Below are positions 1,610 through 43,975 of a DNA stretch of 64,000 bases, piece by piece (the stretch's first letter is position 1; the number at the start of each line of letters is the position of its first letter). The position numbers were made by a program, and so were the translations under genes. Source of the stretch: an uncultured Planctomycetota bacterium (GTDB lineage: Bacteria; Planctomycetota; Planctomycetia; Gemmatales; Gemmataceae); NCBI GenBank assembly GCA_963849325.1, contig CAWKHF010000012.1:160001-224000 (forward strand), given 5' to 3'. The notes under the pieces are model-generated. The model was not told where the DNA came from and did not search any database. It saw only the letters and a program-made list of their open reading frames with translations.

Positions 1610-2215
1610 ATGTACACCGCGTTGTTTCGCTCGCACGGCACCGTTCATCATCGCATTGACATCGTCGCGCTGGCTCTGCGACTGAGCTTGGCCGTGATTT
1701 TCCTGTATCATGGCCTGGACAAGATTACCAGCGACGTGGGCGGCGGCGCCTGGGCGTCGCGCATGTATGACAGTGCAGGAACCATTCAAGTCCCCGGAAC
1801 CCTGACCTACTCCGCCATTCAGTTCGCCGTGGCCTGGGGAGAAATCCTGTGCGGCCTCGCCATGCTGGCGGGCCTGCTCACGCGGGTGGCGGCCCTGGGG
1901 TTGATCGTCATCCAGATCGGGGCCATTTGCCTCGTCACCTACCCGCGCGGTTTTCGCTTCGCCCAGGGCGGAGGCTACGAGTACAACCTGGCGCTGCTGG
2001 CCATGTGCCTGTCGCTACTGATCCTGGGCGCCGGCGTCTGGTCGGTGGACTGGCTGTTAGTCTACGAACACATGAAGGCGGCGGGCCATCCCGCCGCGGC
2101 CTCTCCGACCCTGGTCGGCCCGCACACGATGCCCGCCCAGTCGGCGGAAGCTATCGTCAGTGCTCAGGGGGCTAACGCCCCCCGCTCGGAGATCGCGCCG
2201 CCGCGGACTATGTGA
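1610..2215 (+). CDS. DoxX family membrane protein
   Basis: LRLSLAVIFLYHGLDK, GLLTRVAAL, GGYEYNLALL; GGAGG RBS upstream of the ATG. Confidence 0.9.
   Translation: MYTALFRSHGTVHHRIDIVALALRLSLAVIFLYHGLDKITSDVGGGAWASRMYDSAGTIQVPGTLTYSAIQFAVAWGEILCGLAMLAGLLTRVAALGLIVIQIGAICLVTYPRGFRFAQGGGYEYNLALLAMCLSLLILGAGVWSVDWLLVYEHMKAAGHPAAASPTLVGPHTMPAQSAEAIVSAQGANAPRSEIAPPRTM
2165..2188. repeat. Family A palindrome half-unit inside DoxX
   Basis: CAGGGGGCTAACGCCCCCCGCTCG, translated QGANAPRS. Confidence 0.8.
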
Positions 2216-3705
2216 GGGCGGCGCCGCGCCTCGACCGCAACGCGCGAAAGCGCTCGTAGGGCGCCTGCCAGTCGCCGGGTCGCAGCGGCGCGAAGGTGCG
2301 CACCTCGAAGGAACGCCGCACGATCTCGCGGGCGTCGGCCAACGAGCCGAGGACGCCCAGCCCCAGCGACTGCACCAGCACGTTGCCGATCGCCGTCGCC
2401 TCGACCGGCCCGGCCAGCACCGGCCGGTCGCAGGCGTCGGCGGTGAACTGGTTCAACAGGGCGTTTTGACTGCCGCCGCCAACGACATGGATGACCTCGG
2501 CCCGCCGGCCCGTCAACGCCTCCAACCGTTCCAGTACCCAGCGATAGCACAGCGCCAAACTTTCCAGGGCGCAGCGCACCGCGCCGCCGACGCCGTCCGG
2601 CGCCGGTTGCCCGCTGCGCCGGCAGAAGTCGGCCAGCGCCGCCGGCATGTTCGCCGGCAGGATGAAAGACGGATCGTCCGGGTCAACTAGGCTGACGAAC
2701 GGCGTCGCCGCCTCGGCCCGACGGGTCAACTCGTCGTAGTCGTAGGACGTGCCGGCGCGCACCCAGGCGCGCCGGCACTCCTGCACCAGCCACAGGCCCA
2801 TGATGTTCTTGAGCAAGCGCGTGGTGCCGCCGACGCCACCCTCGTTGGTGAAGTTGGCCTCCAGGGCCGCGTCGCTGACAAGCGGTTGACTCAGCTCAAC
2901 GCCCATCAGCGACCAGGTACCGGAACTGATGTAGGCCCACGAGGCGGCCGACGCCGGCACGGCGGCGATGGCCGCGGCGGTGTCGTGCGACGCCGGCGCG
3001 ATCACCGGCGCCGGGTTGATGCCCGTCTCACTGGCAATCGACGCCCGCAGCGGGCCGAGCACGGTGCCTGGCGGAACCAGGGTGCCGAGCACCTGCGACG
3101 GCAGGCCGAACGCCCGGACCAACTCGTAGGCCCAGCCGCGCGTTTGCGGATCGAGCATCTGGCTGGTGCTGGCGTCCGTGTATTCGTTGACCTTGATGCC
3201 GGTGAAGAAATAGTGGAACAGGTCCGGCATGAACAGCAGCGTCTCGGCCATTTCCAGCAGGGGCGAGCGATCGCGCTGCAGCGCCAGCAGTTGAAACAGC
3301 GTATTGAAGCGCATGAACTGAATGCCGGTCTGCCGAAAGATGTCCCGGCGCGGCACACGGGCGAACGCCGATTCCATGACGTCCTCGGTGTGCGGATCGC
3401 GGTAGTGGCGCGGATTGCCCAGCAGCGTGCCGCCGCGGCCGAGCAGGGCGAAATCGACGCCCCAGGTGTCCACCCCCAGGCCGTCGAGCGGGCCATGCCG
3501 CGGCCGCGCACAGCCGCAGCGTTTGCAGCATCTCGCCGTACAGCCGCAGTACGTCCCAGTGCAAGGTGTCGAGCGTGCGCACCGCTCCGTTGGCAAAGCG
3601 ATGGATCACTTCCAGGCTCAGACGCGAACCGTCGAACGAACCGAGGATGCCCCGGCCGCTCTCGGCGCCGAGATCGAAGGCGAGAAATTGCTTGGCGGAG
3701 GACAT
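2208..3705 (-). CDS. rhaB: Rhamnulokinase / FGGY sugar kinase (frameshift near 3500)
   Basis: FLAFDLGAESGR, GVDTWGVDF, SHDTAAA, YISSGTWSL, NFTNEGG, GPVEATAIGN. Confidence 0.88.
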
Positions 3706-3832
3706 GACGGCGACCCCTGAATCCGCAACGACGCTGACGAATCCCTGTCGCCCTTATTAGGGAGGAACCTGGCAGATCGCAAGGGGTGGCGAGAGGCCGC
3801 CCTGTCGCCGTGGACGGTCTCGCCCCAATGGA

Positions 3833-5998
3833 TCACCCGGCCATCGCCTGAAGTCCGCGACTGTAGCCCAGCCAAAAGGCGACCTCACCCACGGGCGTCC
3901 CGTTCAACGGATTGAGGTTGATGAGCTCCAGAACCCCGTCCAATCCCGAGGATGCAGCCAGATAATTCACTCCCAGGAGATTGTTGATCGCGGTCACTTG
4001 CTGGTCCATGAAAGGGGCAAGACTCGGGTTACGACCGTACATCAACAGCACGGAGTCTACTCCCAGCACGAACGAATCCTCGAACAGGAAGAGGAACTGC
4101 ACATTCGTCGGCAGCAAGAGGTACGGCGACGGTACGGGTGTCGGCGTGGGTGTCGGCGTGGGCGTTGGTGTAGGCGTCGGCGTCGGCGTGGGGTTACTCC
4201 ATGGTATCAGGGTAATCGTCGCCGTCGCCGGAGTGGACATCTGGACGTTGGTGGAATCGCCGCCCTGGTCGTCGTAAGGAAACCCATACGCGAAACCGCC
4301 AACCGTGATGCCGGAGTTGGGATTGATGGTGCTGTTTTGGTGGAGAAAGGCCGCGTAGTAGTTGGACGTGCTGCCGGTTGCGTAGTAAACGGGGGGCGTT
4401 GCGGTCGGGGTTACCGCGGCCAAGCCGGTGTCGGTGAAAGTGATGAGCGGGTTGTTGTTGGGGCTGCCGTCGGTGTTGGTAACATTGCTGGCGATGAGCA
4501 CTTCCTGGCCCGAACTGGTGCCTCGGTAGACATTGTAAGAGATCACGCCTAATGGACCATTATTACCTTGCAAGGGACCGTTGGCCGCCGTCCAGTTCAA
4601 GGTGACGCTCGGGGTGGGGCCGGTGGGCGTGGCGGTCGCCTCAGAACTGGCCACGGTCTCGCCGGCGCCGTTCACGGCCGTAATGACGTAGTAGTAAGGA
4701 GTGCCGCTGACGAGATTGTCGCTGCTCGGGGAACCGGAATTGCCGGGCAACGCCGTCAGGTTCAACGGAGCATTGGCCCAATCGTTAGGCGCCAGGCTCG
4801 TCGCGATGCCGCGATTGAAAGCGGAACTGATCGCGTTTTCAACGTCCGACAGGTAGCCGGCGTTCGGCGCGGACGGATCCTGTCCGCCGCTATTGAACAC
4901 TCCGTCCTGGCTGAAGACCATTTCTCCCGGAGATTCCGTAGTATTTACCAACCACTTCGGAGGGAGCGTCGTTCCAATGGAAGAATTGGTGGAAAAGAAC
5001 GGCTCGTAGATGTCGAAATATTGCCCGGGATAGGTGGAGTTGCTCAAACGGAGCACCGTGTAGGAGGTATTTACGTTGTTGGTATTGAGATCGGTAATGA
5101 CCGTGGTGTTGCCGGTGAACACGCCGTCGGTGCCGTAATCCAGGGTGAACGAGTTGGCCGTGGTGTACTTAGCGAAGAAGGCTGTAAGCTGCGAATTGAA
5201 GTAACTATTCAAGGGGTCGGCACTCGGCGCTGAAATGAGATAATCCTTCGGAGACAAGATACGTAAATCGCCGGACTGATAGAGATTTTGAAAATCAGCG
5301 GCATTAGAGGTGTTGGCCGCATACTGGGTGAACAGGGTTTGCAAGGTTGTGAGGTTCGGTGTGATCCCCCTTTGGTCCGTAACGATGGAATTGGAAGTGG
5401 TAACCGTATACGGCAAGCCGACCTGATCGACCTCCGAAAGATCGGTGTCCAGTCCGGCGGAGTTGTAGGAAAATTCGGCGAAATCGTAAACATTGTTGGG
5501 GGAAGTCCCCGGCGTCGGCACGGCAATGGTTACCGGCGTGCCCGAGCTGGCAACTATGTTAAAGGGCTGCGCCGAGGAGCCGACGCCCATTACGATGTCG
5601 CCGGTAACAACAGACGTGTTCGGGAGAGGGACACTGAAGGTGTCCGCGGTGTCGCCACTAACCGTTTGGAAGGAAGGCACATTCAACGACGCGGTGGGCA
5701 CCGCCCAATCGTAAACGCCGCCCGTGTCCTTTAGATAGACAACCGTGCCAGCGGGGATGAACGTACCCTTGTCAGGTCCGCTTGAGGGGGTATAGCCCGA
5801 TCCAGAGGGGTCCAACGCCCCAAACATGTAAAAATTGATGGTTTGCCACGTATTTCCCACGCCCGAGGGAATCGCAAAGTCAAAGGTGGCCGTACCACTC
5901 AACAGGTTGCGGTCCTCAAGACACTCCAACATCGGGCGAATCGAACAACGCGCCAGGCTGCCCACACGACGGACACGCTCGCGGAAGAATGAAGTCAT
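3833..5998 (-). CDS. Secreted GH64-like beta-1,3-glucanase with LEDR N-terminal motif, inserted FN3-like module, PT linker and C-terminal helical tail
   Basis: LECLEDRNLL; YDFAEFSYNSAGLDTDLSEVDQVGLP; SAFNRG; NYYAAFLH...AYGFPYDD; FN3-like YYYVITAVNGAGE and SYNVYRGTSSG; (PT)n linker. Confidence 0.75.
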   Translation of the reverse strand: MTSFFRERVRRVGSLARCSIRPMLECLEDRNLLSGTATFDFAIPSGVGNTWQTINFYMFGALDPSGSGYTPSSGPDKGTFIPAGTVVYLKDTGGVYDWAVPTASLNVPSFQTVSGDTADTFSVPLPNTSVVTGDIVMGVGSSAQPFNIVASSGTPVTIAVPTPGTSPNNVYDFAEFSYNSAGLDTDLSEVDQVGLPYTVTTSNSIVTDQRGITPNLTTLQTLFTQYAANTSNAADFQNLYQSGDLRILSPKDYLISAPSADPLNSYFNSQLTAFFAKYTTANSFTLDYGTDGVFTGNTTVITDLNTNNVNTSYTVLRLSNSTYPGQYFDIYEPFFSTNSSIGTTLPPKWLVNTTESPGEMVFSQDGVFNSGGQDPSAPNAGYLSDVENAISSAFNRGIATSLAPNDWANAPLNLTALPGNSGSPSSDNLVSGTPYYYVITAVNGAGETVASSEATATPTGPTPSVTLNWTAANGPLQGNNGPLGVISYNVYRGTSSGQEVLIASNVTNTDGSPNNNPLITFTDTGLAAVTPTATPPVYYATGSTSNYYAAFLHQNSTINPNSGITVGGFAYGFPYDDQGGDSTNVQMSTPATATITLIPWSNPTPTPTPTPTPTPTPTPTPVPSPYLLLPTNVQFLFLFEDSFVLGVDSVLLMYGRNPSLAPFMDQQVTAINNLLGVNYLAASSGLDGVLELINLNPLNGTPVGEVAFWLGYSRGLQAMAG
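4134..4193 (-). repeat. Pro-Thr coding tandem repeat (linker)
   Basis: Encodes about ten PT units with degenerate codons. Confidence 0.9.
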
Positions 5999-6603
5999 AC
6001 CAGGCTTCCTCAAAGGATCCAGAGAGGCGACATGAGGACGGCCACGTTTCCGACTCTCTGTCAACTTCGGAAAACAACGACGTTTCAATTTTGCTTAATA
6101 TCCAACCGGCACGGCTGGACAATGTCGGTAAAATGGACAAAATATCCGACCCAGGGGCGGTATTGTTTGCCTCTCCGCTGTACGCGATGTGTTCCGCGCT
6201 GTCGCTGCCCTCGCTACAACTGCATCCGTCCGGCTCAATAACCGCCTGGAATCGCCAGGGAGAAAAGGGGTTGTCTCTCTCCCGGAGTTACGGCGTGGTG
6301 GATCTCGTTCTTCGACCCAACCTACCACCTCCGACCAACCGCAAGCACACTTTCCCTTTGGCGGGGAGCTATTGGAGCGCATGTGGGCTCCCCTTGTCGG
6401 AGGGAAAGACGGAGGCATGAAGACAGCCTCCCTCCCGTTGAGGCAAGTCAATTCTCGTGGATCTTGCCTCTTCTATCTCCACTATCTACTACGCAGGCTG
6501 TGACAGTGGTTCCCCTCGGGGCCGGCGTCCGTTACAATCTCGGTTTGCGGAGCCGGCATTCACGCTCGTGGGGGTTCGACCTGGAGCGAAAGGTGGTAGG
6601 CCG

Positions 6604-7003
6604 ATGGGACAGGGTAATGCCGACGGACACCTGAGCCAGATCAGCACGAACTGGTCGGACATCTTGCAGGCACACACGGGGCCGGAGGAGATGTCACGGG
6701 AGGCCCGCAAGGCCTTGCTGGACCGTTACTGGAGGGCCGTGCCTCGCTACCTGCTTGGCGCCGTGCGCGATGCCGACGTGGCCGAGAACCTGGCGCAGGA
6801 GTTCGCCCTGCGTTTCCTGCGCGGCGACTTCCGCAACGCTCGTCCCGAGCGCGGCAGCTTCCGGCACTACCTCAAGACGGCCCTCCTCCATCTGGTCCAC
6901 GACCACTTCCATGCTCAGGCGCGTCAGCCGCGATTGTTGGGCGCCGGTGCCGACCAACTGCCGGCACCGGATTTGTGCGCGGAGGACGAACAGGTGTTCC
7001 TCC
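6604..7003 (+). pseudogene. ECF sigma-70 factor, 3'-truncated (region 2 only, no region 4)
   Basis: LSQISTNWS, LLDRYWRAVPRYLLGAVRDADVAENLAQEF, RGSFRHYLKTAL. Sigma-like sequence stops at EDEQVFL, where the ORF runs into the antisense of the next gene. Confidence 0.75.
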
Positions 7004-7391
7004 CGGCGTACGGCAAGTTGGCGGTGATGTCGGCCTGCAACGCAGCCGGCGTATCCAAATGTCGGAATTCATCGAGTTCGATATCGAGAGTCTCCAGCCC
7101 TTGCGCCACGGGATCGGTGGCGCCGGGGAGAACATCGGGATTGTGGGCTTGGGCCTGGAATTGGAAAATCGCCACATTCACCGCGACATTCGTCGCCGCC
7201 AGTGCCCCATCGAGGTACAGCGACGTTACCGCCTGGAACAGGCTAGGCGGCGGCGGGGAAGGAGACGGGTCGCCTCCCGTGGTGGAGGGTGTAATACGGT
7301 CCTCCAGCGCTTCCAGCCGCGGCCGCGCCGTGGCGGAGCGAGGACCAGGTGAGCGATGACGGACCTGAGGCAGCAAGGAGGAGAAGTCCAT
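7003..7391 (-). CDS. Small LEDR-motif secreted protein, probably 3'-truncated
   Basis: RPRLEALEDRITPS, Pro linker, then SLFQAVTSLYLDG...ITANLPYAG. The frame continues in the antisense of the sigma fragment to a stop at 6924. Confidence 0.6.
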
Positions 7392-7626
7392 GGGAGAAGC
7401 CTCCGGGCGAGAGTAAGGGCGATGGAGTGACAAGAGTCGTCGATTACGGATCGTGTTCCTCCGCTCGTTTGTTTCCGCGTACCGGGAGAGGTTGAATGAA
7501 TTGTTAAGGCTCCCGCCAGGGCTGTCAAACAGAAAAACAAGGGCTGTCATCGGCGAGCGGTCGGCGGAATCCGACAATGGTGTATGATGAATCCAGAGAC
7601 CATGAGCACGACAAGGGGAGACAGGC

Positions 7627-8609: not shown

Positions 8610-8668
8610 CAAGGTGACAAGGTGACAAGGTGAACCGAATTGTCTTTGTCACCTTGTCACCTTGTCAC
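8591..8668. repeat. Inverted array of the 8-mer TGACAAGG (5 forward, about 3 reverse copies)
   Basis: Seen directly; forms a hairpin and overlaps the yhaM stop codon. Confidence 0.9.
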
Positions 8669-8694
8669 GGTAGGCAGGCAGGCAGGAGCGTGTG

Positions 8695-10878
8695 ATGCCC
8701 AGTTTGGAAGATCAGATCCTGGCGGCGGTCTCGCGCCGCAACTATCAGCCGCTCAAACCCAAAGCCCTGGCCCGTAAGATCGGCGTGACCACGCCGCAGT
8801 ACGCCGACTTTCGCCGTGCCCTGCGCGGTCTGCACCGCGATGGCCGCATCGAAATGGGCAAGAACCACACCGTCAAGCCGGCGCCGCCGCACGGCACCGT
8901 TACCGGCACCTATCGCCGCACCAGCAGCGGCGTCGGCTACGTTCGGCCGCACCCGATCGAGGGCCAGTCCGGCGCCGAGGTTCGCATCTCCGAGGGCCAC
9001 GCCCTCGACGCCGCCACCGGCGACAGTGTACTCGTTCGCCTGACGCGCAAACCGAATCGCCCGGACGTCCTCGCCTCCGGTCAGGTGCTCCGCGTCCTCG
9101 AACGGGCCACGCGCCAGTTCGTCGGCACCTATTTCGAGCGCGACGGCCAGGGGTTGGTGCGCGTCGATGGCACGGTTTTCAGCCACAGCATCTACGTCGG
9201 CGATCCGGGGGCCAAGGGAGCGCGGCCCGATGACAAGGTCGTCTTCGAGATGCTGCGTTTTCCGACGCCAGAGGACCGCGGCGAGGGCGTACTCACGGAG
9301 GTTCTCGGTCCACGTGGCCAACCTGGCGTCGATACGCTGTCGATCATCCGCGCCTTCGGTCTGCCCGACGTGTTCCCCGAGGACGCCGTGCAGGAGGCCC
9401 GCGACGCGGCCGCCGCCTTCGACGAGGATGAGTTGGACGGCCGTGAGGACTTCACCGGCGACCTCGTCGTCACCATCGACCCCGTCGACGCCCGCGACTT
9501 CGACGACGCGGTGTCGCTGGTGCGCGACGCGGAGGGCGGCCACTGGCGCTTGACCGTCCACATCGCCGACGTCAACCACTTCGCCCCGCCCGGCGGCGCC
9601 CTCGACCGCGAGGCCCGCCGCCGCGCCACCAGCGTCTATCTGCCGCAGCGCGTGCTGCCGATGTTCCCGGAGATCATCTCCAACAGCCTCGCCAGCTTGC
9701 AGCAGGACCGGCTGCGCTACGTCAAGAGCGTCGTCCTCGACTTCACGCCGGAAGGGCAGAAGACCGGCGTGCGCTTCGCCAACGGCGCGATCCGCGTCCG
9801 TCGCCGCTTCACCTACGAGCAGGTATTCGATCTGCTCGAACCGGCGAGCGGGGGGCGTCAGCCCCCTGTTACGCGACAACAGGGGGCTGACGCCCCCCGC
9901 TCGCCAGGTGAAGAAATCGCGCCGGAGCTTTACGACCTGCTGCTGCGCATGCGCGATCTGGCCCTGGTCCTGCGCAAGCGCCGCCTTCGCCGCGGAGCGC
10001 TGGAATTGAACATGCCGGAGGCGGAGCTGGAATACGACGAGCAGGGCCGCGTAATGGGCGCCCACTTCCGCAAGCACGACATCAGCCACCAGATCATTGA
10101 GGAATTCATGCTGGCGGCCAACGAGGCTGTCGCCGAGCACTTCGCCGAACTCGACGTGCCCTTCTTGCGCCGCGTCCACCCCGACCCCGATCCGAACAAG
10201 CTGTCCGCCTTCGCCGACTTCGCTCGCAGTCTCGGCTACAAGATGCCGACCGACTTCGACCGCTTCGCCTTGCAGCGCATCCTGGAAAAGTCGGCGAAGC
10301 GCCCGAGGTCTACGCCGTCCATTACGCCCTCTTACGATCTCTCAAGCAGGCCGTGTACAGCCCGGAAGAGGACGGTCATTACGCCCTGGCCAGCGACAAC
10401 TACTGCCATTTCACTTCACCCATCCGCCGTTATCCCGATCTGACCGTCCATCGTCTGCTGGACCAGTGGCTGCGCCGCCGGCCGCTGCGGCAGCAACGCG
10501 ACCGAACTGATCGCGCTGGGCGATCATTGCAGCAAGATGGAACGCCGGGCCGAGATGGCCGAGCGCGAACTGGTCAAGCTGAAACTGCTGACGTACCTGA
10601 GCGAACGGCTGGGTCTGGAGCTGGAGGCGATCATCACGGGCGTGGCGGATTACGGCTTCTTCGCCCAGGCCGAGCAGTGGCCCGTCGAGGGGTTGGTCCA
10701 CGTCAGCACACTGACCGACGATTATTACTACTTCGAGGAGTCGGCCCACAGCCTGATCGGCCGCCGCACCAAGCGACGCTTCCGCCTGGGCGACAAGGTC
10801 CACGTCAGCGTGGTGCGTGTCGATGTGCCGCGGCGGCAGATGGATTTCCGCGTCGTCCAGCCGAGGGAAAAAGGCTGA
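8695..10878 (+). CDS. rnr: Ribonuclease R (frameshifts near 10300 and 10490)
   Basis: N-terminal HTH/CSD region, [57 protein letters not shown]-terminal S1 domain. Confidence 0.93.
9843..9905. repeat. Family A palindrome in-frame inside rnr
   Basis: GGCGAGCGGGGGGCGTCAGCCCCCTGTT...AACAGGGGGCTGACGCCCCCCGCTCGCC. Confidence 0.92.
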
Positions 10879-10964
10879 TAAATGCGCCAAATGCTCCTTG
10901 CACGGGAGAAGACACCACCGTAATATGAAGTTTCCGTTAAGATTCCGTGTGCGATGGAGTATCG

Positions 10965-16403: not shown

Positions 16404-16418
16404 GATCGGTCCCCAAAG

Positions 16419-17540: not shown

Positions 17541-17613
17541 GCCATTCCCTCCGTCGATCCGCACGACACGCGGCCCAAGTATACGCGCAGGCCGCAGCGT
17601 GTGAATAGATCAA

Positions 17614-17679
17614 CTGGCGAGCGGGGGGCGTAAGCCCCCTGTTGGTTCCTACAGGGGGCTTACGCCCCCCGCTCGCCAG
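17614..17679. repeat. Family A palindrome overlapping the aminotransferase stop codon
   Basis: CTGGCGAGCGGGGGGCGTAAGCCCCCTGT...ACAGGGGGCTTACGCCCCCCGCTCGCCAG. Confidence 0.92.
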
Positions 17680-18838
17680 GGTTTCCACCGCGCAACCGTT
17701 CGGCGTGTACCTGAATCTTCGCGGCGGCAAGGGCGACCTGCTCCACGTCGGCGTCGCTGCCGAGCAAGACGGGATGGTGCAGCACGACGGACCCTTGATG
17801 GGCCTGTTCCGCATTCGGTAGCGAGCCGGCCCCGCGCCAGCGGCTGGGGGAACGTCCCACGTGCAGGGCGCGAAATCCTTCATCGAGGGCGATCCCCTCG
17901 GCCCGCATCGCCGCCACGAAGCGGCGCGGTCCAGGCCAAAACCGTCCGCATCGAACTGGAACCCCAGCTTGTAATACGACGCTTCACTGTCTTCGAGGTC
18001 GGGATTGTGCAACGGCCGAAAACCGCGAACGGATCGCAAGCGCGGGCACAGGGAGCGCACACGGCGCAGGCGGTGGGCGTTGCGCTCGGCGAGGCGGTCG
18101 AGTTGGGGCAGCAGCACGGCGGCCTGGAGTTCGGACAGGGGACAGACGTGATTGCCGCGCTGGAGCCACAGACGAGCGCGCTGGGCCAAGTCCGCCCGAT
18201 GGGTCAAGAGGACGCCGCCGCGACCGGCGGTCAGCAGCTTGGAGCCGCCGAAGCTGAGTACGCCCACGTCGCCCCAGGTGCCGGCCGGACGTCCCTGCAC
18301 CCGCGCGCCAGGCGCCTGGGCCACGTCCTCAATAATGGAGACGTCGTGCTCCCTGGCCAACTCCACGACTCGGCGCATCGGGACCAGGCCGCCGTGCAGG
18401 TGCGAGACGATGGCGGCGCGGGTGGCGGAACCAAAGGCGGCGCTCAACCGTTCGGGATCGAGGTTCCAGTTGTCGGCATCGACATCAACCAGCACCGGAC
18501 GGGCGCCGACAGCGTGGACGCTGAGGAAATTGCCGCCGTAGTCGTAGGCGGCCATCACCACCTCATCGCCGGCGCCGACCTTCAACTGCGCGCAGCGCCA
18601 GCTCGACCGCGAACGTGCCGCTGCCGCAGGTCAGGGCGTGAGCGACGCCGTACTCGGCCGATAGACGCGCCTCCAGCCGCTCGACGTGTCCGCCATGATA
18701 GCGGCCCCAGGAACCGTCCCGATACGCCGACAGCATCGCCTCCCGAACGGCGTCGTCGGCAATCGGCCAGTCCGGCGGACCTTGTGGCCGGATCGGTTCG
18801 CCGCCCAAGAGCGCTGGCAAGTCGGTGTCTGTGGTCAT
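17660..18838 (-). CDS. DegT/DnrJ/EryC1/StrS PLP-dependent aminotransferase (frameshifts near 18585 and 17928)
   Basis: LPALLGGEP, GSGTFA, IIEDVAQAPGA, SFGGSKLLTAGRGG, LSELQAAVL. Confidence 0.88.
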
Positions 18839-19623
18839 GACGCCGTTCCCGGCGGAGGGATCGAAGGGAGAAATTGCCGCGACCAGTCGGCGTCGTCGGG
18901 AGGGAGCGGCGGTTGGGGCGAGCCGGTGTAGATGTAATCCTCATAACCGGCGGCATCGTAGAGACGGTTCAGCGCCTGTTGCAAATCGATTTGGGCGTCC
19001 GCGTCCGGCGCACGCAGGGGGATGGGGATGACGGGCAGACGCTCGCGGAGACGCAACGGCCAGATGCCGACTCCCGGCCGTTCCTCGGCGCGGCTGACGA
19101 GAACGCAATAATCGCAGTCGGGCAGTTCTTCCAGAGGCAAGCGCGGGCCGCCGCGCAGCAAATCGATTTCCACGATATGTACGGAGCTGGCGGACAATTG
19201 CCGGCGCTTGGCGAGGTATTGGGCCCGATCGGGTCCGAGTCGTTTGTTCGAGGGGCTGAGCACTTCAAGGACCGTGACCAGATGGCGATTATGGCGATCT
19301 CGAATTTCGAGATAAGAATGGCGCTCGACGTCCACGGGGGGAGACCATCGGCCATACATCGGGGCTTCGAGTGTTGCTCCCGCGGTTGGGAGCCTTGCGC
19401 CCGACGGCGAACGAGTCAAGGAGACGTTGGCCCGTCCGAGAGGACGCCGCTCGTCTTCGGGAAGTTCGTGAATGACGAGATATTCTTCCACATGAGCCAG
19501 GTAAGCGGGCCGTACCTGTGTCGCCAGCATGTCGCGCAGGAGCGGAAGGAGGCTCTGGTGAAAGTCTACCCAAACGTCTTCCTGTTCCAGGTAGGGATTC
19601 ATTCCTGGAAATGGCGAAGGCAT
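18835..19623 (-). CDS. DUF4058 family protein (restriction-endonuclease-like fold)
   Basis: MPSPFPGMNPYLE, LEVLSPSNK, VEIDLLRGG, LPVIPIPLRAPD. Confidence 0.92.
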   Translation of the reverse strand: MPSPFPGMNPYLEQEDVWVDFHQSLLPLLRDMLATQVRPAYLAHVEEYLVIHELPEDERRPLGRANVSLTRSPSGARLPTAGATLEAPMYGRWSPPVDVERHSYLEIRDRHNRHLVTVLEVLSPSNKRLGPDRAQYLAKRRQLSASSVHIVEIDLLRGGPRLPLEELPDCDYCVLVSRAEERPGVGIWPLRLRERLPVIPIPLRAPDADAQIDLQQALNRLYDAAGYEDYIYTGSPQPPLPPDDADWSRQFLPSIPPPGTAS

Positions 19624-31112: not shown

Positions 31113-31127
31113 TCGAACGGTTCGTTT

Positions 31128-32494: not shown

Positions 32495-32500
32495 GAGGTG

Positions 32501-34094: not shown

Positions 34095-34133
34095 GGGAGC
34101 GGGGATTCTCCCGCTCCCTTACGGTCGCGGCTC
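34080..34133. repeat. REP-like palindrome, family C (GAGCCGCGACCGTAAGGGAGCG)
   Basis: Perfect arms; copy at 39631-39682. Confidence 0.9.
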
Positions 34134-36368: not shown

Positions 36369-36596
36369 GGCTTTCCTCTCGTTGCGGGAGGTGAATTTTC
36401 CACCCACTGTAACAGTTCTTCGCGGCGGAGCAAGATTGCGCGTCCGCTTTTGCGGCCCACCGGGCTTAGGAGGGTGAAGACCTTATCCCTGTACGAGAGG
36501 ACCTTGACGCTCGCTCCGGCGTCCGCCGTGCGCGCTCCGCCGTAGCGAAGCTGCCCATCCCCCAGGTGGGTTCGTCCTTCACCAAAGGAGTCTCTC

Positions 36597-38112: not shown

Positions 38113-38275
38113 GTAGTTCACCGTGGAGCGTGTGAGGAGGCCAGGAAGACATTCGTAAGGCGCACCGGTGCGCTCGAAGAACAAGTTCGCCAAATCGCCC
38201 CATTGTTTAACAGGTTGCGGCAGTGGGGATCGAAGTCAACCGGAGCAGCCTATTCCGAGAATCGGAGGTAGTCAG

Positions 38276-38546
38276 ATGGCCGTACAGGGTGGAGACAGCG
38301 GCTGCATCAGCGGACTCGTTGACGACAATGGCGCGGTCAGCTTCAACATCAACGTCAACGGGGATGCCTTCGGATCAACACACACCGGGACCATTACTTG
38401 TGATCGTCCGGTGCGCATCGTGTCGGAGCAGCACCTGGATGGTGGCGGTGATTACGCTGGCGCTGCGAACGGCAACATTTACACGTGGCGCACTCGAGTG
38501 CGCCAATTTCGCGGGGGTGCATTACAACATCCAGCTGGCGTACTGA
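38276..38546 (+). CDS. Small hypothetical beta-rich protein (3' end uncertain; possible frameshift near 38488)
   Basis: GGAGG RBS 7 nt before the ATG; MAVQGGDSGCISG... An alternative frame gives the plausible end ALECANFAGVHYNIQLAY; the unshifted frame ends at 38605. Confidence 0.45.
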
Positions 38547-38760
38547 CGGATAGTGGGGATCGTGATAGCGAAGACCCACACCGTTGCCGGTTCGCTCTTC
38601 GGTAACCGGATCGGTGGATCGAGCCGCGTCATCGCGGCTCGATCTCGTATTCCTCCCCAGCGCGGCCCTTTTTCACGCGCCAATATCTCGTCGTCGTCCG
38701 CAAGAACGCTCGCTAGAATGAACCGTGTGACGCATCACCGACGAGAAGGGGGTTCGTTTC

Positions 38761-39624
38761 ATGACATCTCGTTGTCACCACTTTGGCCTCGGTCTCGCTC
38801 TGCTGACGGCCGCGTTGGCCTGTTCACTTCTCCGCGCCGATGAACGGCTCAAGGACATCGCCTGCCGCTCCGTCCATCTCCGCTACCCCGCAGCCGAGGG
38901 TGTGGCGTTTTACAACGAGGTCGCGGTCGAGCGCTCTGCTCCCGGCACCTACTTCATGGTGTGCGGCTGGGACAAGGGCTATTTCGGCATGCAAGAGCTG
39001 GGCAACGGCAAGAAGCTGCTGCTCTTCTCCGTGTGGGACTCCGGTCAGAACGATCCCAAGGCCGTCGCCGAGGACAAGCACGTTCGGCTGCTGCACCGAG
39101 ATGCGAAGGTGCGCATTGGCCGCTTCGGCGGCGAGGGCACCGGCGGGCAGTCGTTCTTCGATTACGACTGGAAGGCCGGACAGACGTATCGTTTCCTGGT
39201 GACGGCCCGCATCAATGGCGAACGCACGGAGTACGCCGGCTGGTTCTATCTTCCCGAAGACAAGGCGTGGAAACATCTGGTGACGTTTTCCACCCTCACG
39301 GGCGGAAAACGGCTGCGCGGTTACTACTCGTTTATCGAGGACTTCAAGCGCGACCGCGCCTCGGCCACGAAGGTCCGCTCCGCTCACTTCGGCAACGGCT
39401 GGATCCAAAACAAGGACGGCGAATGGCAAGCGCTAACCAAGGCGCGCTTTACCGCCGATCGCAACCCCGTCGTGAACATCAACGCCGTCCTCGACGGCGA
39501 ACGATTTTCCCTGGCGACCGGCGACGACACAAGCAACAAGGATACGAAGCTGGGTGCGACGATGGAATTGCCGTCTCGATCCAAACGGATGCCGCCGGAA
39601 GGATTGCCGGCAGCCGATCGTTAG
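38761..39624 (+). CDS. DUF3472/DUF5077 domain secreted protein
   Basis: RSVHL, FYNEV, GYFGMQE, LFSVWD, FGGEGTGGQS, YSFIEDF. Confidence 0.85.
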   Translation: MTSRCHHFGLGLALLTAALACSLLRADERLKDIACRSVHLRYPAAEGVAFYNEVAVERSAPGTYFMVCGWDKGYFGMQELGNGKKLLLFSVWDSGQNDPKAVAEDKHVRLLHRDAKVRIGRFGGEGTGGQSFFDYDWKAGQTYRFLVTARINGERTEYAGWFYLPEDKAWKHLVTFSTLTGGKRLRGYYSFIEDFKRDRASATKVRSAHFGNGWIQNKDGEWQALTKARFTADRNPVVNINAVLDGERFSLATGDDTSNKDTKLGATMELPSRSKRMPPEGLPAADR

Positions 39625-39630
39625 AGGACC

Positions 39631-39682
39631 GAGCCGCGACCGTCAGGGAGCGGTTACTCCCGCTCCCTGACGGTCGCGGCTC
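39631..39682. repeat. REP-like palindrome, family C
   Basis: GAGCCGCGACCGTCAGGGAGCG...CGCTCCCTGACGGTCGCGGCTC between convergent genes. Confidence 0.9.
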
Positions 39683-39696
39683 CGAAGGGCGGGAAG

Positions 39697-40122
39697 TCAT
39701 TTCGACTGGTTCAGGAAATCGAACACTTGCAGCTTCTCCATGTCGAAGTGTTCGCCATGCTTCTTGACGAACTCCAGGTGCATGGGGTATTCGAGGTACG
39801 CCTTGAGTCCGCGGGCATCCTCGACGAGCACGAGCAGGGCGAAATCGTACTTCATTTTGGGAACGTCCGGCGTGCCCTCCTTGGCCGGCCGGCCGGCGTG
39901 GACCGAGCGCACGGCGGGAATGTTGGCCAACAGGTTATGGCAATCGGCGATGGCCTTGGTGACCGCGTCCGTGGGCGCGTCCTTCTTCATGCGGAAGACG
40001 ACGACGTGGGCGAAGGGAGGATGGATCTTCTTGTCCGCCGCCTTCGGAAGCTGGGCCGGCGCCAGGCCCGCCACGATTCCGAACAGGGCCAGCGCGGCCC
40101 CCAACAGCAATGTCCGCGTCAT
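39697..40122 (-). CDS. Dabb (stress-responsive A/B barrel) family protein with signal peptide
   Basis: HVVVFRMK, LANIPAV, YDFALLV, YLEYPMHLEFV, VFDF. Confidence 0.85.
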   Translation of the reverse strand: MTRTLLLGAALALFGIVAGLAPAQLPKAADKKIHPPFAHVVVFRMKKDAPTDAVTKAIADCHNLLANIPAVRSVHAGRPAKEGTPDVPKMKYDFALLVLVEDARGLKAYLEYPMHLEFVKKHGEHFDMEKLQVFDFLNQSK

Positions 40123-40239
40123 CCGTTGTCTCCTTCGTGAATGTTCCTCGTGACCTTCGAGAAAGGCTATCAAACGACGGCGCGGCGGGCAACGCGCCGC
40201 TGGCGGGACGGATTCAGCCGACGCTCGTACAATCGCGGT

Positions 40240-41259
40240 ATGCGCGGCAAACTGCGGCGAGCCTGGCCCGTCGTCAAGGCCATCCTGTGGCTTCTCATCC
40301 TGTTCCTGATCGGACGGCAGTTCGCCCGAGACCTGCGACGGCCCGAACTGTGGCAGCGTCCGCTGCATCCGGGCTGGCTCATCCTGTCGGGCCTGCTTTA
40401 TCTGCTGGGCATCGGTCTGTCCGCGCTGTACTGGGAGCGCTTGCTCGGCCATCTGGGGACGCGGCCGCCGCTGCGTGTGATGTTGCGGGCGTACTACCTC
40501 GGACACCTGGGCAAGTATCTACCGGGCAAGGCATGGGCGTTGTTTCTACGGTCGAGCCTGGTGCGCGGACACGGCGTCAGCCTCGGCCTGGCAACGCTCA
40601 CCTCGTTCTATGAGGTGCTGACGACGATGGCGGCGGGCGTGCTCGTGGCGACAGTGCTGTTCGCCGTGCTCGGCGCCGACGCCGGAGCCGGACTGAGTGC
40701 GGACACGCTGCGGCGACTGCTGACGCTGGGGCCGCCGGCCGAGGAAGGCTTGCAGCGCTCGGTCGTCGTGACGCTGTCGGCGCTGTTATTCCTGGCGTTG
40801 ATTGTGCCGCTGCAACCGGCGATCTTCAATCGGCTGGCGCATCGGATGTCGCTGCCGTTCCGCGAGCGCGACGCGGAGCAACTACCGCACATCCGTCTCG
40901 GCTACCTGGTGGAGGGACTGGCCTTCGCCGGCGTGGGCTGGCTGTTGTTGGGGGCGAGCGTCGCCGCCACGCTGCGCGGCATCGTTGGCGACGCCTGGCC
41001 GCTTTGGGACGTGCGGACGGCCCGGCTGCCGGCCGTCATGGGACTGGCTTACGTCATCGGCTTCGTCGTCCTCATCGCTCCGGGCGGACTGGGCGTGCGC
41101 GAGTTTCTGCTGACGTTGCTGCTGGCGCCGGAGTTGGTCGGTGTGGACGGATTGGGGGCGGAGCAGGCTCGCGGCACCGTCGTGCTGGCGGTCCTTGTCC
41201 TGCGTCTAGTGTGGACCGCGGCTGAGTTGGTTATGGCGGCCCTGGTTCGTCAGTTCTGA
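40240..41259 (+). CDS. Lysylphosphatidylglycerol-synthase-TM / flippase-like membrane protein (YbhN/AglD2-like)
   Basis: GHLGKYLPGK, APGGLGVRE, multiple TM segments. Confidence 0.82.
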   Translation: MRGKLRRAWPVVKAILWLLILFLIGRQFARDLRRPELWQRPLHPGWLILSGLLYLLGIGLSALYWERLLGHLGTRPPLRVMLRAYYLGHLGKYLPGKAWALFLRSSLVRGHGVSLGLATLTSFYEVLTTMAAGVLVATVLFAVLGADAGAGLSADTLRRLLTLGPPAEEGLQRSVVVTLSALLFLALIVPLQPAIFNRLAHRMSLPFRERDAEQLPHIRLGYLVEGLAFAGVGWLLLGASVAATLRGIVGDAWPLWDVRTARLPAVMGLAYVIGFVVLIAPGGLGVREFLLTLLLAPELVGVDGLGAEQARGTVVLAVLVLRLVWTAAELVMAALVRQF

Positions 41260-41336
41260 GTTCTGAGTTCTGAGTTCTGAGTGAAAGAAGGGAAGGATGT
41301 TTTTCACTCAGAACTCAGAACTCAGAACTCAGAACT
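41252..41336. repeat. Inverted array of the 7-mer AGTTCTG (4 forward + 4 reverse)
   Basis: Perfect long hairpin; overlaps the upstream stop codon. Confidence 0.9.
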
Positions 41337-41368
41337 ACTAATGGGGCCGGTATGTCAGGAGAACGGCC

Positions 41369-42357
41369 GTGATTTCGGTCGTCATTCCGGTCTTCAACGA
41401 ACGCGACAGCCTGCCGGCGCTGGCTGCGGAGATCGCCGCCGTGGCGAACGCGGCGCGGCTGGACCTGGAGATCCTCTTCGTGGACGACGGCAGCACGGAC
41501 GGTTCCTGGCAGGCGATCGCGGAGTTGGCGCGGCGCATTCGGAGATACACGGCATCCGCTTTCGCCGCAATTTCGGCAAGGCGGCGGCATTGTCGGCCGG
41601 CTTCCGCGCCGCACGCGGCGACATCATCCTGACGCTCGACGCCGACTTGCAGGACGACCCCGCCGAAATTCCGCGCTTCCTCGATAGGCTGGACGACATC
41701 AAGGCGAGCGGGGGGCTGACGACCTCCGCTCGCCTTGACGTCATCAGCGGTTGGAAGCGCGTGCGGCACGATCCCTGGCACAAGGTCTGGCCCAGTCGTG
41801 TCTTCAACTTCCTGGTCAGCTGGCTGACCGGCGTTCGCCTGCACGACCACAACTGCGGCATGAAGTGCTATCGTGCCGAAATCTTCCGCGAGGTGCGGCT
41901 GTATGGGGAACTGCACCGTTTCATCCCGGTGCTGGCGGCGGCGCGCGGCTACCGCGTCGGCGAGATCGAGGTCCAGCATCGGCCGCGCAAGTTCGGCCAT
42001 TCCAAGTATGGCGTGCGCCGCTTCGTCAAGGGCTTCCTCGATCTGCTCACGGTCAAGTTCCTCACCGGCTTCGGACAGCGGCCACAGCACCTGCTCGGTA
42101 GCCTCGGCCTGGTCAGCTTCCTGCTCGGCGGTCTCGTCCTGCTCTATCTCGGCGTCACCTGGATCATCCGCCTGTGGCAACCGGACGCCTACCCGCCGCT
42201 GCACGAACGGCCGCTGCTCATCTACGCCCTGGCCGCCCTGCTGCTTGGCGCCCAGATGATGTCCATTGGCTTCCTGGCCGAGCTGGTCACCGCCTACGTC
42301 GGCCGTGACGAGGACAGTTACAGCATCGCCGAAAAAACCCCTCCGCAAACTCCATGA
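41369..42357 (+). CDS. GT2 polyprenol-phosphate glycosyltransferase (ArnC/GtrB/DPM-like), frameshift near 41535
   Basis: [45 protein letters not shown], two C-terminal TM helices. Confidence 0.9.
41701..41736. repeat. Family A reduced palindrome in-frame inside the GT2 gene
   Basis: AAGGCGAGCGGGGGGCTGACGACCTCCGCTCGCCTT. Confidence 0.8.
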
Positions 42358-43975
42358 ATGTACCCGCCGATCCGACCCCACCGCTGCGCCGCCTGACCTA
42401 CACGCTGCTGATCGCCGTGGCCGCGGCAATGGCCGTCGGACGCATCTTCTCGACGGAGTTGGTCTACGAGCCAACCCTGTCGGAGGATTGGCCGCGCGAT
42501 CCGGGACACCCGCGCCGCGCCTGGCCAGCCGCGGCGCCGCGCGCCATGCCCACGTTCAGTTCCAACGACCGCTCGCGCTGGGCCGCCGTCCGCGCCCTGG
42601 TGGACGAGGGAACGTGGATCGTCGGCCGCCGCGACAAGGAGGTTGTCCTCACCAGCGCCCCCACCGCCCTGGCCGCCGGCGACGCCTTGCAATTGGCCGT
42701 GTTGCTGGAAGTCGGTTACGACCGGCGAATCAAGAGCGATACCGGCATCATCTTCGAGGACGGCTGGCAGAGCGTGGACAAGATGCTCGATCCCTCGACC
42801 CTCGAATACTACTCCACCAAGCCGCCGCTGTTGACGTTCCTCGTCGCCTGCGAGTACGGACTGCTGAAGAAGATGTTCGGCTGGTCGCTCGGCGGGATGA
42901 CGGGGGAGCTCCGAACGACCGCTTTTCCGTGGTGCGTGTCTGTCTGCTCACGTTCAACGTGCTGCCGTTCGTGGTTGCCCTGTGGTTGTTTGGCCGGTTG
43001 GCGGAGCGTTTCGGAACGACGGACTGGGGCCGCCTCTTCGTCGTCGCCGCCGCGTGCTTCGGCACGCTGGTGACACCGTTCCTCATCACGCTCAACAACC
43101 ACACCCTCGCCACGTGCAGCCTCGTCGTCGCCGTGTACGCCGCGGTGCGCATCCTGGAGTCAAGCGAGAGCAATTGGAGATGGTTCGTCATCGCCGGTTT
43201 CTTCGCGGGGTTCACGGCGGTCAACGAGTTGCCGGCCGCCGCCTTCGCCGTCGGTCTGGGACTGCTTCTGCTGCGGCGCTCCGCCGGACGGACGCTGCTG
43301 GCGTTCGCCCCTGCCGCGCTCGTGCCTGTGGTGGCGCTCTTGGCCCTCAACTACGCGGAGTTGGGCGAATTCAACGTCGGCTACAGCAAATTCGGCGGCC
43401 CGTGGTACGAATACGAGGGCAGCCACTGGCGCAACCTGCCCGATCGGTCCAAGCGTGGCATCGATTGGGCGAAGAACCAGGAAGGCAAGGGCGCCTATGC
43501 GTTCCATCTGCTGCTGGGCCATCACGGCTGGTTCTCGCTGACGCCGATTTATCTGCTGGGCCTGGGAGGGATGGCCTGGGGCGTGCGGAGTCTTCTGCGG
43601 AGCGGGGAGCGTAAGCCCCCTGAGACGTACACAACTCAGGGGGCTTACGCCCCCCGCTCCGCAGGAAGAATTCGCGCCGAACTGGCCGTCTCGACTTTGT
43701 TGCTTTCGCTCGTCGTGATGGGATACTACATTTTCAAAAGCGACAACTACGGCGGTTGGACGAACGGGCCGCGCTGGCTGATGTGGTTGTCGCCGCTGTG
43801 GCTGCTGACCCTGCTGCCTGTCGTCGATCGGCTCGGACAACGGCGCTGGGGCCGGGCGTTGTGCGTCTTTCTGCTGGCGGTGTCGGTGCTGTCGGCCCAT
43901 TACTGGGACTGGAACCCCTGGCGGCATCCGTGGATCTATAATTTCATGGATGCACGCGGATGGATACCGTACTGA
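42354..43975 (+). CDS. Polytopic membrane protein, putative GT-C glycosyltransferase (frameshift near 42905)
   Basis: [33 protein letters not shown]; many TM segments; ATGA overlap with the GT2 gene. Confidence 0.6.
43595..43664. repeat. Family A palindrome in-frame inside the GT-C-like gene
   Basis: CTGCGGAGCGGGGAGCGTAAGCCCCCTGAG...CTCAGGGGGCTTACGCCCCCCGCTCCGCAG. Confidence 0.9.

What the first reader, a model, noticed from the sequence alone, without database searches (positions are those of the whole stretch)
2165..43664. One palindromic element family is translated in-frame inside four unrelated proteins
Seen: the arm GGGGGCT(A/G/T)ACGCCCCCCGCTC and its complement occur five times, and every copy overlaps a CDS. 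Locations: DoxX tail (2165-2188, QGANAPRS), RNase R (9843-9905, [20 protein letters not shown]), GT2 (41701-41736, [12 protein letters not shown]), GT-C-like protein (43595-43664, [21 protein letters not shown]), and the aminotransferase end (17614-17679). The arms are conserved while the spacers differ, and three hosts use the same reading phase (QGAxAPRS). Known: Rickettsia palindromic elements insert in-frame into proteins, whereas typical REPs are extragenic. Inference: a planctomycete element that spreads into coding sequence and adds loop peptides, possibly also acting as an mRNA hairpin.
Basis: partly seen in the sequence, partly recalled or inferred. Interest (0 to 1): 0.8.

Follow-up and report, generated by a model that had tools for sequence, protein, structure and literature searches.

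The report
REP-type palindromes, some inside genes
The repeated palindrome is a planctomycete version of the well-known bacterial REP/REPIN mobile hairpins; most copies lie between genes, but a minority sit in frame inside protein loops, and those loops are re-used by different hairpin families in related species.

Summary
The arms are real: 8 arms at 5 places in the window (0.03 expected), and 161 arms at 100 places in the 8.16-Mb genome. Each arm is a short tag plus a 6-bp GC hairpin, and 59 of 100 places are inverted doublets. That is REP/REPIN architecture.

In a congener (G002), a divergent HUH-tyrosine transposase gene is flanked on both sides by exact copies of this arm. Its homologues in other genera are flanked by variants with the same tag and loop but co-varying stems. 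This matches the published "class 3 TnpA-Y1" group of Planctomycetes. The window's own genome has no such gene.

By a codon model, 75 of 100 places are extragenic, against 16% of random positions. About 10-15 are in frame inside genes.

- **Internal to a gene:** RNase R, a GT2 and a GT-C-like protein.
- **At a gene's 3' end only:** the DoxX and aminotransferase copies.

Intragenic in-frame REPs are already described in other bacteria.

The less expected result is site re-use. The RNase R site carries each species' own variant. The GT-C loop carries three different dispersed palindrome families across the genus.

Verdict: a new member of a known kind, of moderate interest.

The parts
2163..2190 (+). 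Single arm (REP singlet) at the 3' end of the DoxX-family gene (ORF 1580-2215). It encodes about the last 16 codons and lies where two convergent genes meet.
   Evidence: Exact arm at 2167-2187. Pfam DoxX covers residues 30-119. The G006 orthologue ends with an unrelated tail and has no arm. The RNA fold shows only the small hairpin, z -1.9.
9843..9905 (+). 63-nt inverted doublet (REPIN-like) in frame inside the RNB domain of RNase R. It encodes [20 protein letters not shown].
   Evidence: Two exact arms. The Pfam RNB match runs through it in one stretch, residues 251-539. An element sits at the same site in G006, G003 and G009. It is absent there from G001, G002, G004, G005, G007, G008 and the 10 loci of other genera. 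RNA fold -73.4 kcal/mol, z -12.2. In the model of the G003 orthologue it is a coil with pLDDT below 50 between two helices.
8681..10858 (+). RNase R host gene. In this assembly it is split over three frames (8681-10288, 10289-10486, 10487-10858).
   Evidence: Pfam CSD2 and RNB on ORF 8692-10443, with the end of RNB on ORF 10353-10928. Translations. Codon-model frames.
17614..17679 (.). 66-nt inverted doublet in the gap between the DegT-family aminotransferase and the ABC ATPase gene (both on the minus strand). The aminotransferase reads 5 codons into it (GERGA) and uses the TAA of the arm as its stop (17660-17662).
   Evidence: Two exact arms. Non-coding state at 17566-17696. Three-frame translation. 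Pfam DegT ends at residue 206 of the artefactual ORF.
41701..41736 (+). Shortened, single-hairpin derivative (14-bp stem, outer ends of the family kept) in frame in a family-2 glycosyltransferase. It adds 6 residues relative to congeners.
   Evidence: Arm with 2 mismatches. Same coding frame on both sides. Seven congener loci have a loop 6 residues shorter, and G001 has a different, longer insert there. RNA fold -34.6 kcal/mol, z -7.7.
43595..43664 (+). 70-nt inverted doublet (the 'TGAG' sub-type) in frame in a loop of a GT-C-like membrane protein. It encodes [21 protein letters not shown].
   Evidence: Arms with 1 and 0 mismatches. Same frame on both sides. The same loop carries this family in G007 and G008 and other perfect palindromes in G010, G006, G001, G002 and G009. 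RNA fold -69.4 kcal/mol, z -11.7.

Best explanation
The element is a REP/REPIN-type family of small, non-autonomous palindromic DNA.

Anatomy:
- The unit (one arm) is a 5' tag (GGCGAGC, or C[C/T]GAGC in a sub-type), then a 6-bp G/C stem, a GTNA loop and the return stem.
- Two units in inverted orientation around a short variable spacer form a 56-66-nt perfect hairpin.

Mobilisation: such units are most likely cut and copied as single-stranded hairpins by a cognate HUH-tyrosine (Y1) transposase of the 'class 3 TnpA-Y1' / RAYT-like kind. In related genomes this gene is single-copy and flanked by these very units. The window's genome no longer has that gene, so its ~100 copies are probably inherited relics or were last moved before the gene was lost.

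Distribution: insertions land anywhere, but selection removes most hits in genes. Three quarters of copies therefore lie between genes, mostly downstream of them. The survivors inside genes keep the frame, carry no stop and sit in variable loops or linkers. There the G/C-rich sequence encodes Gly/Pro/Ser/Arg/Ala-rich, probably disordered, peptides.

Shown: the anatomy, copy numbers, distribution, the flanking of the transposase gene, the co-varying stems, and the lineage-specific in-frame insertions.

Inferred: mobilisation by the transposase, the role of selection, and that the peptides are translated and tolerated.
For: Architecture:
- 161 arms (up to 3 mismatches) at 100 places: 59 inverted doublets, 40 singlets and 1 triple. 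Of the 151 arms with up to 2 mismatches, 116 are exact.
- The variable loop base is complementary between the two arms in 53 of 59 doublets.

Transposase link:
- In G002 (same genus), a 199-aa ORF is flanked on both sides by exact arms, five in all.
- Its homologues in G028/G025, G022/G010 and G008/G007 are flanked by units with the same tag and GTNA loop but six different, perfectly complementary stems.
- The proteins pass Pfam Y1_Tnp (25.2 and 30.3 bits; cut-off 23). Their best NCBIfam match is 'REP-associated tyrosine transposase', 32-42 bits, below its 80-bit cut-off.
- The alignment shows NH[FVY]H, WW[TA] and YV..Q motifs. [quoted passage not shown]

Distribution:
- 75 of 100 places are extragenic, against 783 of 5000 random positions.
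- Of those 75, 50 lie between co-directional genes, 16 between convergent genes and 9 between divergent genes. The matching length shares of non-coding DNA are 0.58, 0.155 and 0.265.
- Copy number is very uneven among 40 relatives, from 0 to ~600 arms. All 10 genomes of the genus have some. Lineage variants show compensated stem changes.

In-frame copies:
- Shown by domain matches or orthologue alignment for RNase R, GT2, the GT-C-like protein, a kinase, a PKS-like protein and a 1042-aa protein.

Precedent:
- Intragenic REPs, including dimers encoding 20-30 residues and REP ends that supply stop codons, are described in PMC3733652 (passages read).
Against: - The window's own genome has no homologue of the flanked transposase. 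tblastn with the G028 and G002 proteins gives only hits to the arm-encoded tails. A profile of 14 homologues finds nothing at E up to 10 in 131,825 six-frame fragments. The locus next to purH that holds the gene in G002 has neither gene nor arms in G000. Its only Y1 gene (contig C2, 573.6 kb) is IS200-like and not flanked by this arm.
- G026 has about 597 arms but no Y1 or RAYT-like match, so arm abundance does not track the gene in this sample.
- No target-site duplication or clean empty site could be defined. The 'empty' RNase R sites of G004/G008 still read like the tag.
- There is no direct evidence of movement, transcription or translation. No sequencing run holds the region.
- The tag is not the canonical GTAG of classical REPs.
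Confidence: 0.78

Rival explanations
1. One reading: a Rickettsia-type palindromic element whose characteristic behaviour is to spread into coding sequence and add loop peptides.
For: - 15 of 100 places are in frame inside coding sequence by the codon model. That is more than in two other repeat families of the genome: 13 of 313 and 2 of 234.
- Several in-frame copies are shared by species.
- Element-peptide matches lie in open frames of 800-2371 aa in G003 and G006.
Against: - 75 of 100 places are extragenic although 84% of the genome is coding.
- At least three apparent in-ORF copies lie upstream of the real start: P-II, a short-chain dehydrogenase and a class-III aminotransferase.
- The reading phase is not fixed.
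- The cognate gene in relatives is a REP-type transposase.
Confidence: 0.08
2. The hairpins are kept mainly because the host uses them, as RNA or DNA structures (terminators, mRNA 3'-end protectors, translation pauses, supercoiling sites). Their spread is secondary.
For: - In RNase R the arms are better conserved between species than the flanking coding DNA. Arms: 54 of 56, 54 of 56 and 52 of 56 identical. Flanks: 361, 338 and 333 of 414. All arm differences are compensated.
- Very stable folds, z about -12.
- Preference for positions downstream of genes.
Against: - Copy number ranges from 0 to ~600 among relatives.
- The same sites carry unrelated palindromes in different species, so no particular sequence is needed.
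- There is no Rfam match in the window.
- The high arm identity is equally explained by recent re-copying, because G009's copy matches G009's own variant family.
Confidence: 0.12
3. A classical MITE moved by a DDE transposase that recognises terminal inverted repeats and makes target-site duplications.
For: Twelve copies belong to a ~105-nt sub-family. It has extra imperfect terminal inverted repeats and TTA(G)/TAAG at both ends.
Against: The other ~88 places share nothing beyond the palindrome and show no duplication. The associated gene in relatives is a Y1 transposase. The 105-nt form is better read as a MITE that captured one copy.
Confidence: 0.04

Closest known systems
REP / REPIN elements with RAYT transposases (Escherichia coli, Pseudomonas, Stenotrophomonas). 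Papers: PMC3116915 and PMC3337134 seen as search listing and abstracts only; PMC3686654 passages read.
   Same: - A short hairpin unit with a conserved 5' tag, mostly as inverted doublets.
- Tens to hundreds of dispersed, mainly extragenic copies.
- A single-copy Y1 transposase gene flanked by the units.
- Different REP classes with compensated stems around related transposase genes.
- Very uneven copy numbers between related genomes.
   Different: - The tag is C-n-G-A-G-C / GGCGAGC, not GTAG.
- The transposase is only distantly related: below the NCBIfam RAYT cut-off, with a Y....Q tyrosine motif.
- The window's genome has the units but not the gene.
Class 3 TnpA-Y1 'REPtron-like' loci of Planctomycetes, Acidobacteria and Proteobacteria (Quentin et al. 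2018, PMC6006769; Table 1 passage and section 27 read)
   Same: - Protein motifs (NH.H, W[TA], YV..Q).
- A planctomycete host.
- Genes flanked by unusual hairpins with a 5' foot CnGA.
- The hairpins can be high-copy.
   Different: That paper gives no account, in the parts read, of this arm sequence, its doublet form, its genome distribution or its in-frame copies. Its supplementary tables were not opened.
Intragenic REPs and Rickettsia palindromic elements (Di Nocera et al. 2013, PMC3733652; passages read)
   Same: - In-frame copies inside known proteins.
- Dimers encoding 20-30 residues.
- Placement in linkers or loops.
- REP ends that supply stop codons.
- Many apparent N-terminal cases that are really extragenic.
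   Different: - A different tag and family, and a different phylum.
- Here the same protein loop is occupied by different families in sister species. That was not found in the passages read.
MITEs with terminal inverted repeats
   Same: Small, non-coding and dispersed. The 12-copy 105-nt sub-family has terminal repeats and short duplications.
   Different: The main family has neither feature, and its associated enzyme is a Y1, not a DDE, transposase.

Membership tests
REP/REPIN-RAYT system | Unit is a short (20-40 nt) imperfect palindrome with a conserved unpaired tag at one end | tested here: met
   Tag GGCGAGC or C[CT]GAGC, then a 6-bp stem, GTNA loop and return stem.
REP/REPIN-RAYT system | Canonical GT[AG]G tag | tested here: not met
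   No GTAG at either end of the unit in the 100 places. A GTAG-like relative (TAGCC + AGGGGC..GCCCCT) flanks other Y1 genes in G010, G029, G037 and G033.
REP/REPIN-RAYT system | Many dispersed, predominantly extragenic copies | tested here: met
   100 places, 75 of them extragenic by the codon model, against 16% of random positions.
REP/REPIN-RAYT system | Inverted doublets that fold into one long hairpin predominate | tested here: met
   59 of 100 places. Folds of -69 to -73 kcal/mol.
REP/REPIN-RAYT system | A Y1 (HUH) transposase gene flanked by the same units | tested here: inconclusive
   Met in the congener G002 with exact arms, and in G028/G025 with the lineage variant. Not met in the window's genome, which has no homologue.
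REP/REPIN-RAYT system | The transposase cuts and joins the units | not testable with these tools
   Needs biochemistry.
Class 3 TnpA-Y1 (Quentin et al. 2018) | Motifs NH.H, W[TA] and a tyrosine motif Y....Q | tested here: met
   NHFH/NHVH/NHYH/NHIH, WW[TA] and YVL.Q in the alignment of 14 homologues, compared with the Table 1 text of PMC6006769.
Class 3 TnpA-Y1 (Quentin et al. 2018) | Gene flanked by hairpins with a 5' foot CnGA | tested here: met
   CCGA and CTGA feet in G002, G028 and G025. The main sub-type of the window's genome reads GCGA instead.
Rickettsia palindromic elements | Copies characteristically inserted in frame in protein genes | tested here: not met
   Only about 10-15 of 100 places. 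Sequence similarity to RPEs was not tested.
MITE (DDE-type) | Terminal inverted repeats beyond the hairpin, and target-site duplication | tested here: not met
   Seen only in the 12-copy 105-nt sub-family, not in the other places. The filled/empty comparison at RNase R is ambiguous.

The most novel reading that the evidence does not exclude
Protein loops act as long-lived landing pads for these hairpins. Once a loop or linker holds one element, its tag or hairpin attracts later insertions by whichever family is active, and the resident copy is overwritten or nested.

Sister species would then carry different palindrome families, always in frame, at the same residue of RNase R, a GT-C-like glycosyltransferase and a PKS-like protein. 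That would make class-3 Y1/REP systems a steady source of new linker peptides in Gemmatales. It would also give a testable rule for where such elements insert: next to the C-n-G-A-G-C tag, by analogy with IS200/IS605 target choice.
Probability: 0.4. Interest if true: 0.6.

Novelty: new member of a known kind. Interest (0 to 1): 0.4.

Why it matters
- It links a sparsely described transposase group (class 3 TnpA-Y1 of Planctomycetes) to a concrete, well-defined hairpin family with co-varying stems. That gives biochemists a substrate to test.
- REP-type elements can persist in frame inside essential, conserved proteins such as RNase R across several species.
- Particular protein loops are re-used by different hairpin families. 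This bears on how these elements choose targets and on how disordered linkers arise.
- For annotation: in this genus, long open frames running through such palindromes are often artefacts. The palindromes also break short-read assemblies inside genes.

Tried and rejected
- **Sequencing runs:** no run holds more than 8% of the sampled words of window 9300-10700, and no RNA holder is listed.
- **Rfam:** no family reaches its gathering score anywhere in the window.
- **Earlier scan notes by sequence:** nothing.
- **Stop-codon explanation:** I tested whether stop-codon content explains why this family is more often in frame than others. It fits family F2 (2.2 open frames of 6) but not family F1 (6.0 of 6, yet only 13 of 313 in frame), so I dropped it.
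- **Single ancestral insertion in RNase R:** the RNase R tree does not place the four carriers in one clade. G003 groups with the non-carriers G001/G005 at 100/98, and the rest of the genus is unresolved. The element-encoded columns were not removed before the tree was built. Single gain with losses and repeated gain both remain open.
- **Empty-site comparison at the kinase and the 1042-aa protein:** the non-carriers have divergent linkers of similar length, not clean empty sites, so no insertion boundary could be read.
- **Structure model of the G003 RNase R:** only moderate quality (mean pLDDT 63, pTM 0.50). It is used only to say that the insert is a low-confidence coil between two helices. 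The sequence alignment to a solved RNase R (8cdu_C) shows gaps opposite most of the element-encoded stretch.
- **Literature:** a search for Gemmata + palindromic + REP gave nothing relevant among the 10 of 17 papers listed.


Full report
**1. The observation**

Shuffles expect 0.03, and none of 100 shuffles reaches 8. The window is G000:C12:160001-224000 of an 8.16-Mb, 65% G+C assembly in 14 contigs. Genome-wide there are 151 arms with up to 2 mismatches, 116 of them exact. With up to 3 mismatches there are 161 arms at 100 places: 59 inverted doublets, 25 + 15 single arms and one triple.

The full doublet is a 56-66-nt perfect palindrome. It reads GGCGAGC-GGGGGGC-GT(N)A-GCCCCC-TGTT, a short variable spacer, and the mirror image. 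A sub-type has C(C/T)GAGC and TGAG in place of GGCGAGC and TGTT. Each arm contains its own 6-bp hairpin. The variable loop base is complementary between the two arms in 53 of 59 doublets. As RNA the doublets fold at -69 to -73 kcal/mol, with z about -12.

**2. Which window copies are really in genes**

The assembly has many frame switches inside genes.
- The RNB domain of RNase R is spread over two ORFs.
- The DegT, GT2 and GT-C genes also change frame.
- A codon-usage Viterbi model finds 3,794 direct same-strand frame switches among 11,796 coding segments.

I therefore judged coding status from that model, from Pfam and from orthologues. The five window copies come out as follows.

| Copy | Status | Evidence |
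|---|---|---|
| RNase R (9843-9905) | Internal, in frame | The RNB match crosses it in one stretch |
| GT2 (41701-41736) | Internal, in frame | A shortened single hairpin that makes the loop 6 residues longer than in seven congeners |
| GT-C-like (43595-43664) | Internal, in frame | |
| DoxX (2163-2190) | Gene end only | A single arm supplies only the last ~16 codons. The G006 orthologue has another tail |
| Aminotransferase (17614-17679) | Mostly intergenic | It lies in a non-coding gap. The true frame ends GERGA-stop, using the TAA of the arm. The long ORF through it is a frameshift artefact |

**3. Genome-wide distribution**

The model% of the genome coding.
- Of the 100 places, 75 are extragenic, 15 are in coding sequence with the same frame on both sides, 7 are in coding sequence with a frame switch, and 3 overlap a gene end.
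- Of 5,000 random 63-nt positions, 783 are extragenic and 3,025 are in frame in genes.
- The 75 extragenic places lie between co-directional (50), convergent (16) and divergent (9) genes. The matching length shares of non-coding DNA are 0.58, 0.155 and 0.265.

Pfam on 19 open frames that span a copy supports internal positions for:
- a Ser/Thr kinase (inside the kinase domain);
- a PKS-like protein (between the acyltransferase and FabA-like domains);
- a Wzy_C protein (after the domain).

The 1042-aa protein got only a weak TPR hit. Its internal position rests on its long open frame and on the orthologue alignment.

Pfam also shows three copies to be upstream of the real start (P-II, a short-chain dehydrogenase, a class-III aminotransferase). 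The true in-frame share is therefore about 10-15%. Two other palindromic families of the genome are in frame less often, at 13 of 313 and 2 of 234 places. Stop-codon content does not fully explain the difference.

The reading phase is not fixed. Of 14 doublets in open frames, 7 use the ASGGR.PPV/QGA.APRS phase in both arms, 3 use the [17 protein letters not shown] phase in both, and 4 are mixed.

**4. What it is**

A Pfam Y1_Tnp search of the genome finds only one gene. It is IS200-like, lies between argH-like and lysA-like genes, and is not flanked by the arm. Among 40 relatives, however, a weak Y1 match in G028 is flanked by a variant arm. Searching with that protein gave these results:

- In G002, a genome of the same genus, the homologue is flanked on both sides by five exact arms of the window's family. 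The C-terminal residues of the ORF are themselves arm-encoded.
- Homologues in G028/G025, G022/G010 and G008/G007 are flanked by units with the same tag and GTNA loop but six different, perfectly complementary stems. In G023, G017, G014, G011, G020, G037 and G029 the flanking units look similar by eye but contain bulges.
- The proteins pass Pfam Y1_Tnp. Their best NCBIfam match is 'REP-associated tyrosine transposase', below its cut-off.
- Their NH.H, WW[TA] and YV..Q motifs match what Quentin et al. give for class 3 TnpA-Y1. That group is rare, is found mainly in Planctomycetes and Acidobacteria, and has genes flanked by atypical hairpins with a 5' CnGA foot that can reach high copy number (PMC6006769).

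The family is therefore a REP/REPIN-type population of a class-3 Y1 system. I did not test it.

**5. Against a simple picture**

- The window's genome has no homologue of this transposase. The purH-adjacent locus that holds it in G002 has neither gene nor arms.
- G026 has about 597 arms but no Y1 match.
- Many relatives are fragmented draft genomes in which a repeat-flanked gene may be unassembled. G000 and G026, though, have few contigs.

The copies in this genome may thus be relics. They may also have been moved by an enzyme I did not recognise.

**6. Evolution of the in-gene copies**

*RNase R.*
- G006, G003 and G009 carry an element at exactly the same site, always a multiple of three in length (63-66 nt). 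It is absent there from six other genomes of the genus and from the 10 loci of other genera, where the loop varies in length.
- Between G000, G006 and G003 the arms are 52-54 of 56 identical, with only compensated differences. The flanking coding DNA is 333-361 of 414 identical.
- G009's copy has a different but again perfect palindrome. It belongs to a variant family with 74 arms in G009 and at most 3 in four congeners.
- The carriers do not form a clade in the RNase R tree, which is poorly resolved.

*GT-C-like loop.*
- G007 and G008 carry this family. G008 has three tandem left arms, all in frame.
- G010, G006, G001, G002 and G009 carry other perfect palindromes at the same position. Contigs of G009 and G003 break there. 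Other genera have shorter loops.
- The G006 and G010 palindromes belong to other dispersed families: 417 arms in G006, and 146 in G010 with 193 in G003.
- The G006 insert appears bracketed by remnants of the window's family, which suggests nesting. This is my reading of the sequence printed.

*PKS-like linker.* It shows the same pattern. G007 has the G009-type variant, G006 has a contig break in an element, and G009 and G002 have other inserts.

*Kinase.* The copy is shared with G003 and is lacking in G002 and G006.

**7. Mechanism**

The most likely course is hairpin-directed copying by the Y1 enzyme on single-stranded DNA. Selection then leaves extragenic copies and the rare in-frame, stop-free copies in permissive loops.

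The re-use of sites could mean that the tag or hairpin of a resident copy serves as the target for later insertions, as IS200/IS605 elements insert next to a short sequence related to their own end. Recombination between copies is the alternative. Both are inference.

In the model of the G003 RNase R, the insert is a low-confidence coil (residues 389-406, pLDDT below 50) between two helices (mean pLDDT only 63). In the sequence alignment, a solved RNase R (8cdu_C) shows gaps opposite most of the element-encoded stretch.

**8. Novelty**

REPs inside genes are in print. Published examples include dimers encoding 20-30 residues in Opitutus terrae and Rickettsia conorii, REP ends that supply stop codons, and many false N-terminal cases (PMC3733652). 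Also in print are different REP classes around orthologous RAYT genes (PMC3686654) and class-3 Y1 genes with odd hairpins in Planctomycetes (PMC6006769).

What I did not find in the passages read, or in three literature searches, is:
- this particular arm;
- its link to the class-3 gene;
- the replacement of one family by another at the same in-frame site.

I did not open the supplementary tables of those papers. They may list related elements.

Noticed in passing
window 8681-10858, 17697-19370, 41361-42345, 42346-43975; whole genome: Genes are broken by frequent frame switches. Examples: the RNase R RNB domain lies in two frames, and the DegT gene changes frame three times. Genome-wide there are 3,794 direct same-strand frame switches among 11,796 coding segments, and marker completeness is 84.7% in only 14 contigs. 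This looks like an unpolished long-read assembly and not like pseudogenes.
   Followed up: partly
G000 genome-wide, e.g. C1:89525-89576 and C1:63360-63408: Two other, more abundant palindromic doublet families occur at 313 and 234 places. A third family has 160 arms here and 417 in G006. All are mostly extragenic where tested.
   Followed up: partly
G000 genome-wide (16-mer counts): A 37-nt CRISPR-like repeat ending ATTGAAGC is present about 250 times. Long tandem arrays of two heptamers (AGTTCTG and AGGGAAT) are also present.
   Followed up: no
G000: C3:121233, C5:214156, C5:596348, C10:308038 and eight more: Twelve copies of the palindrome sit inside a ~105-nt unit. The unit has imperfect terminal inverted repeats and TTA(G)/TAAG on both sides. 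It looks like a MITE that captured one copy of the palindrome.
   Followed up: partly
G000:C2:573628-573927 (L021 1486-1785): A truncated IS200-like Y1 transposase gene (100 aa, HUH motif present) lies between argininosuccinate-lyase-like and diaminopimelate-decarboxylase-like genes. It is flanked by small hairpins with TTCA loops that resemble the stems of other REP variants.
   Followed up: partly
L099 (G008:C78) and L098 (G010:C225), flanks of the RAYT-like genes: Tandem arrays of four to eight identical REP units at fixed 35-46-nt spacing flank the transposase genes. These are REPtron-like clusters.
   Followed up: no
G000 doublets genome-wide: The GAGC-to-GCTC span is a multiple of three in 35 of 59 doublets, 23 of 47 if the roughly 12 MITE-like copies are set aside. 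The cause is unclear and may only reflect sub-family structure.
   Followed up: no
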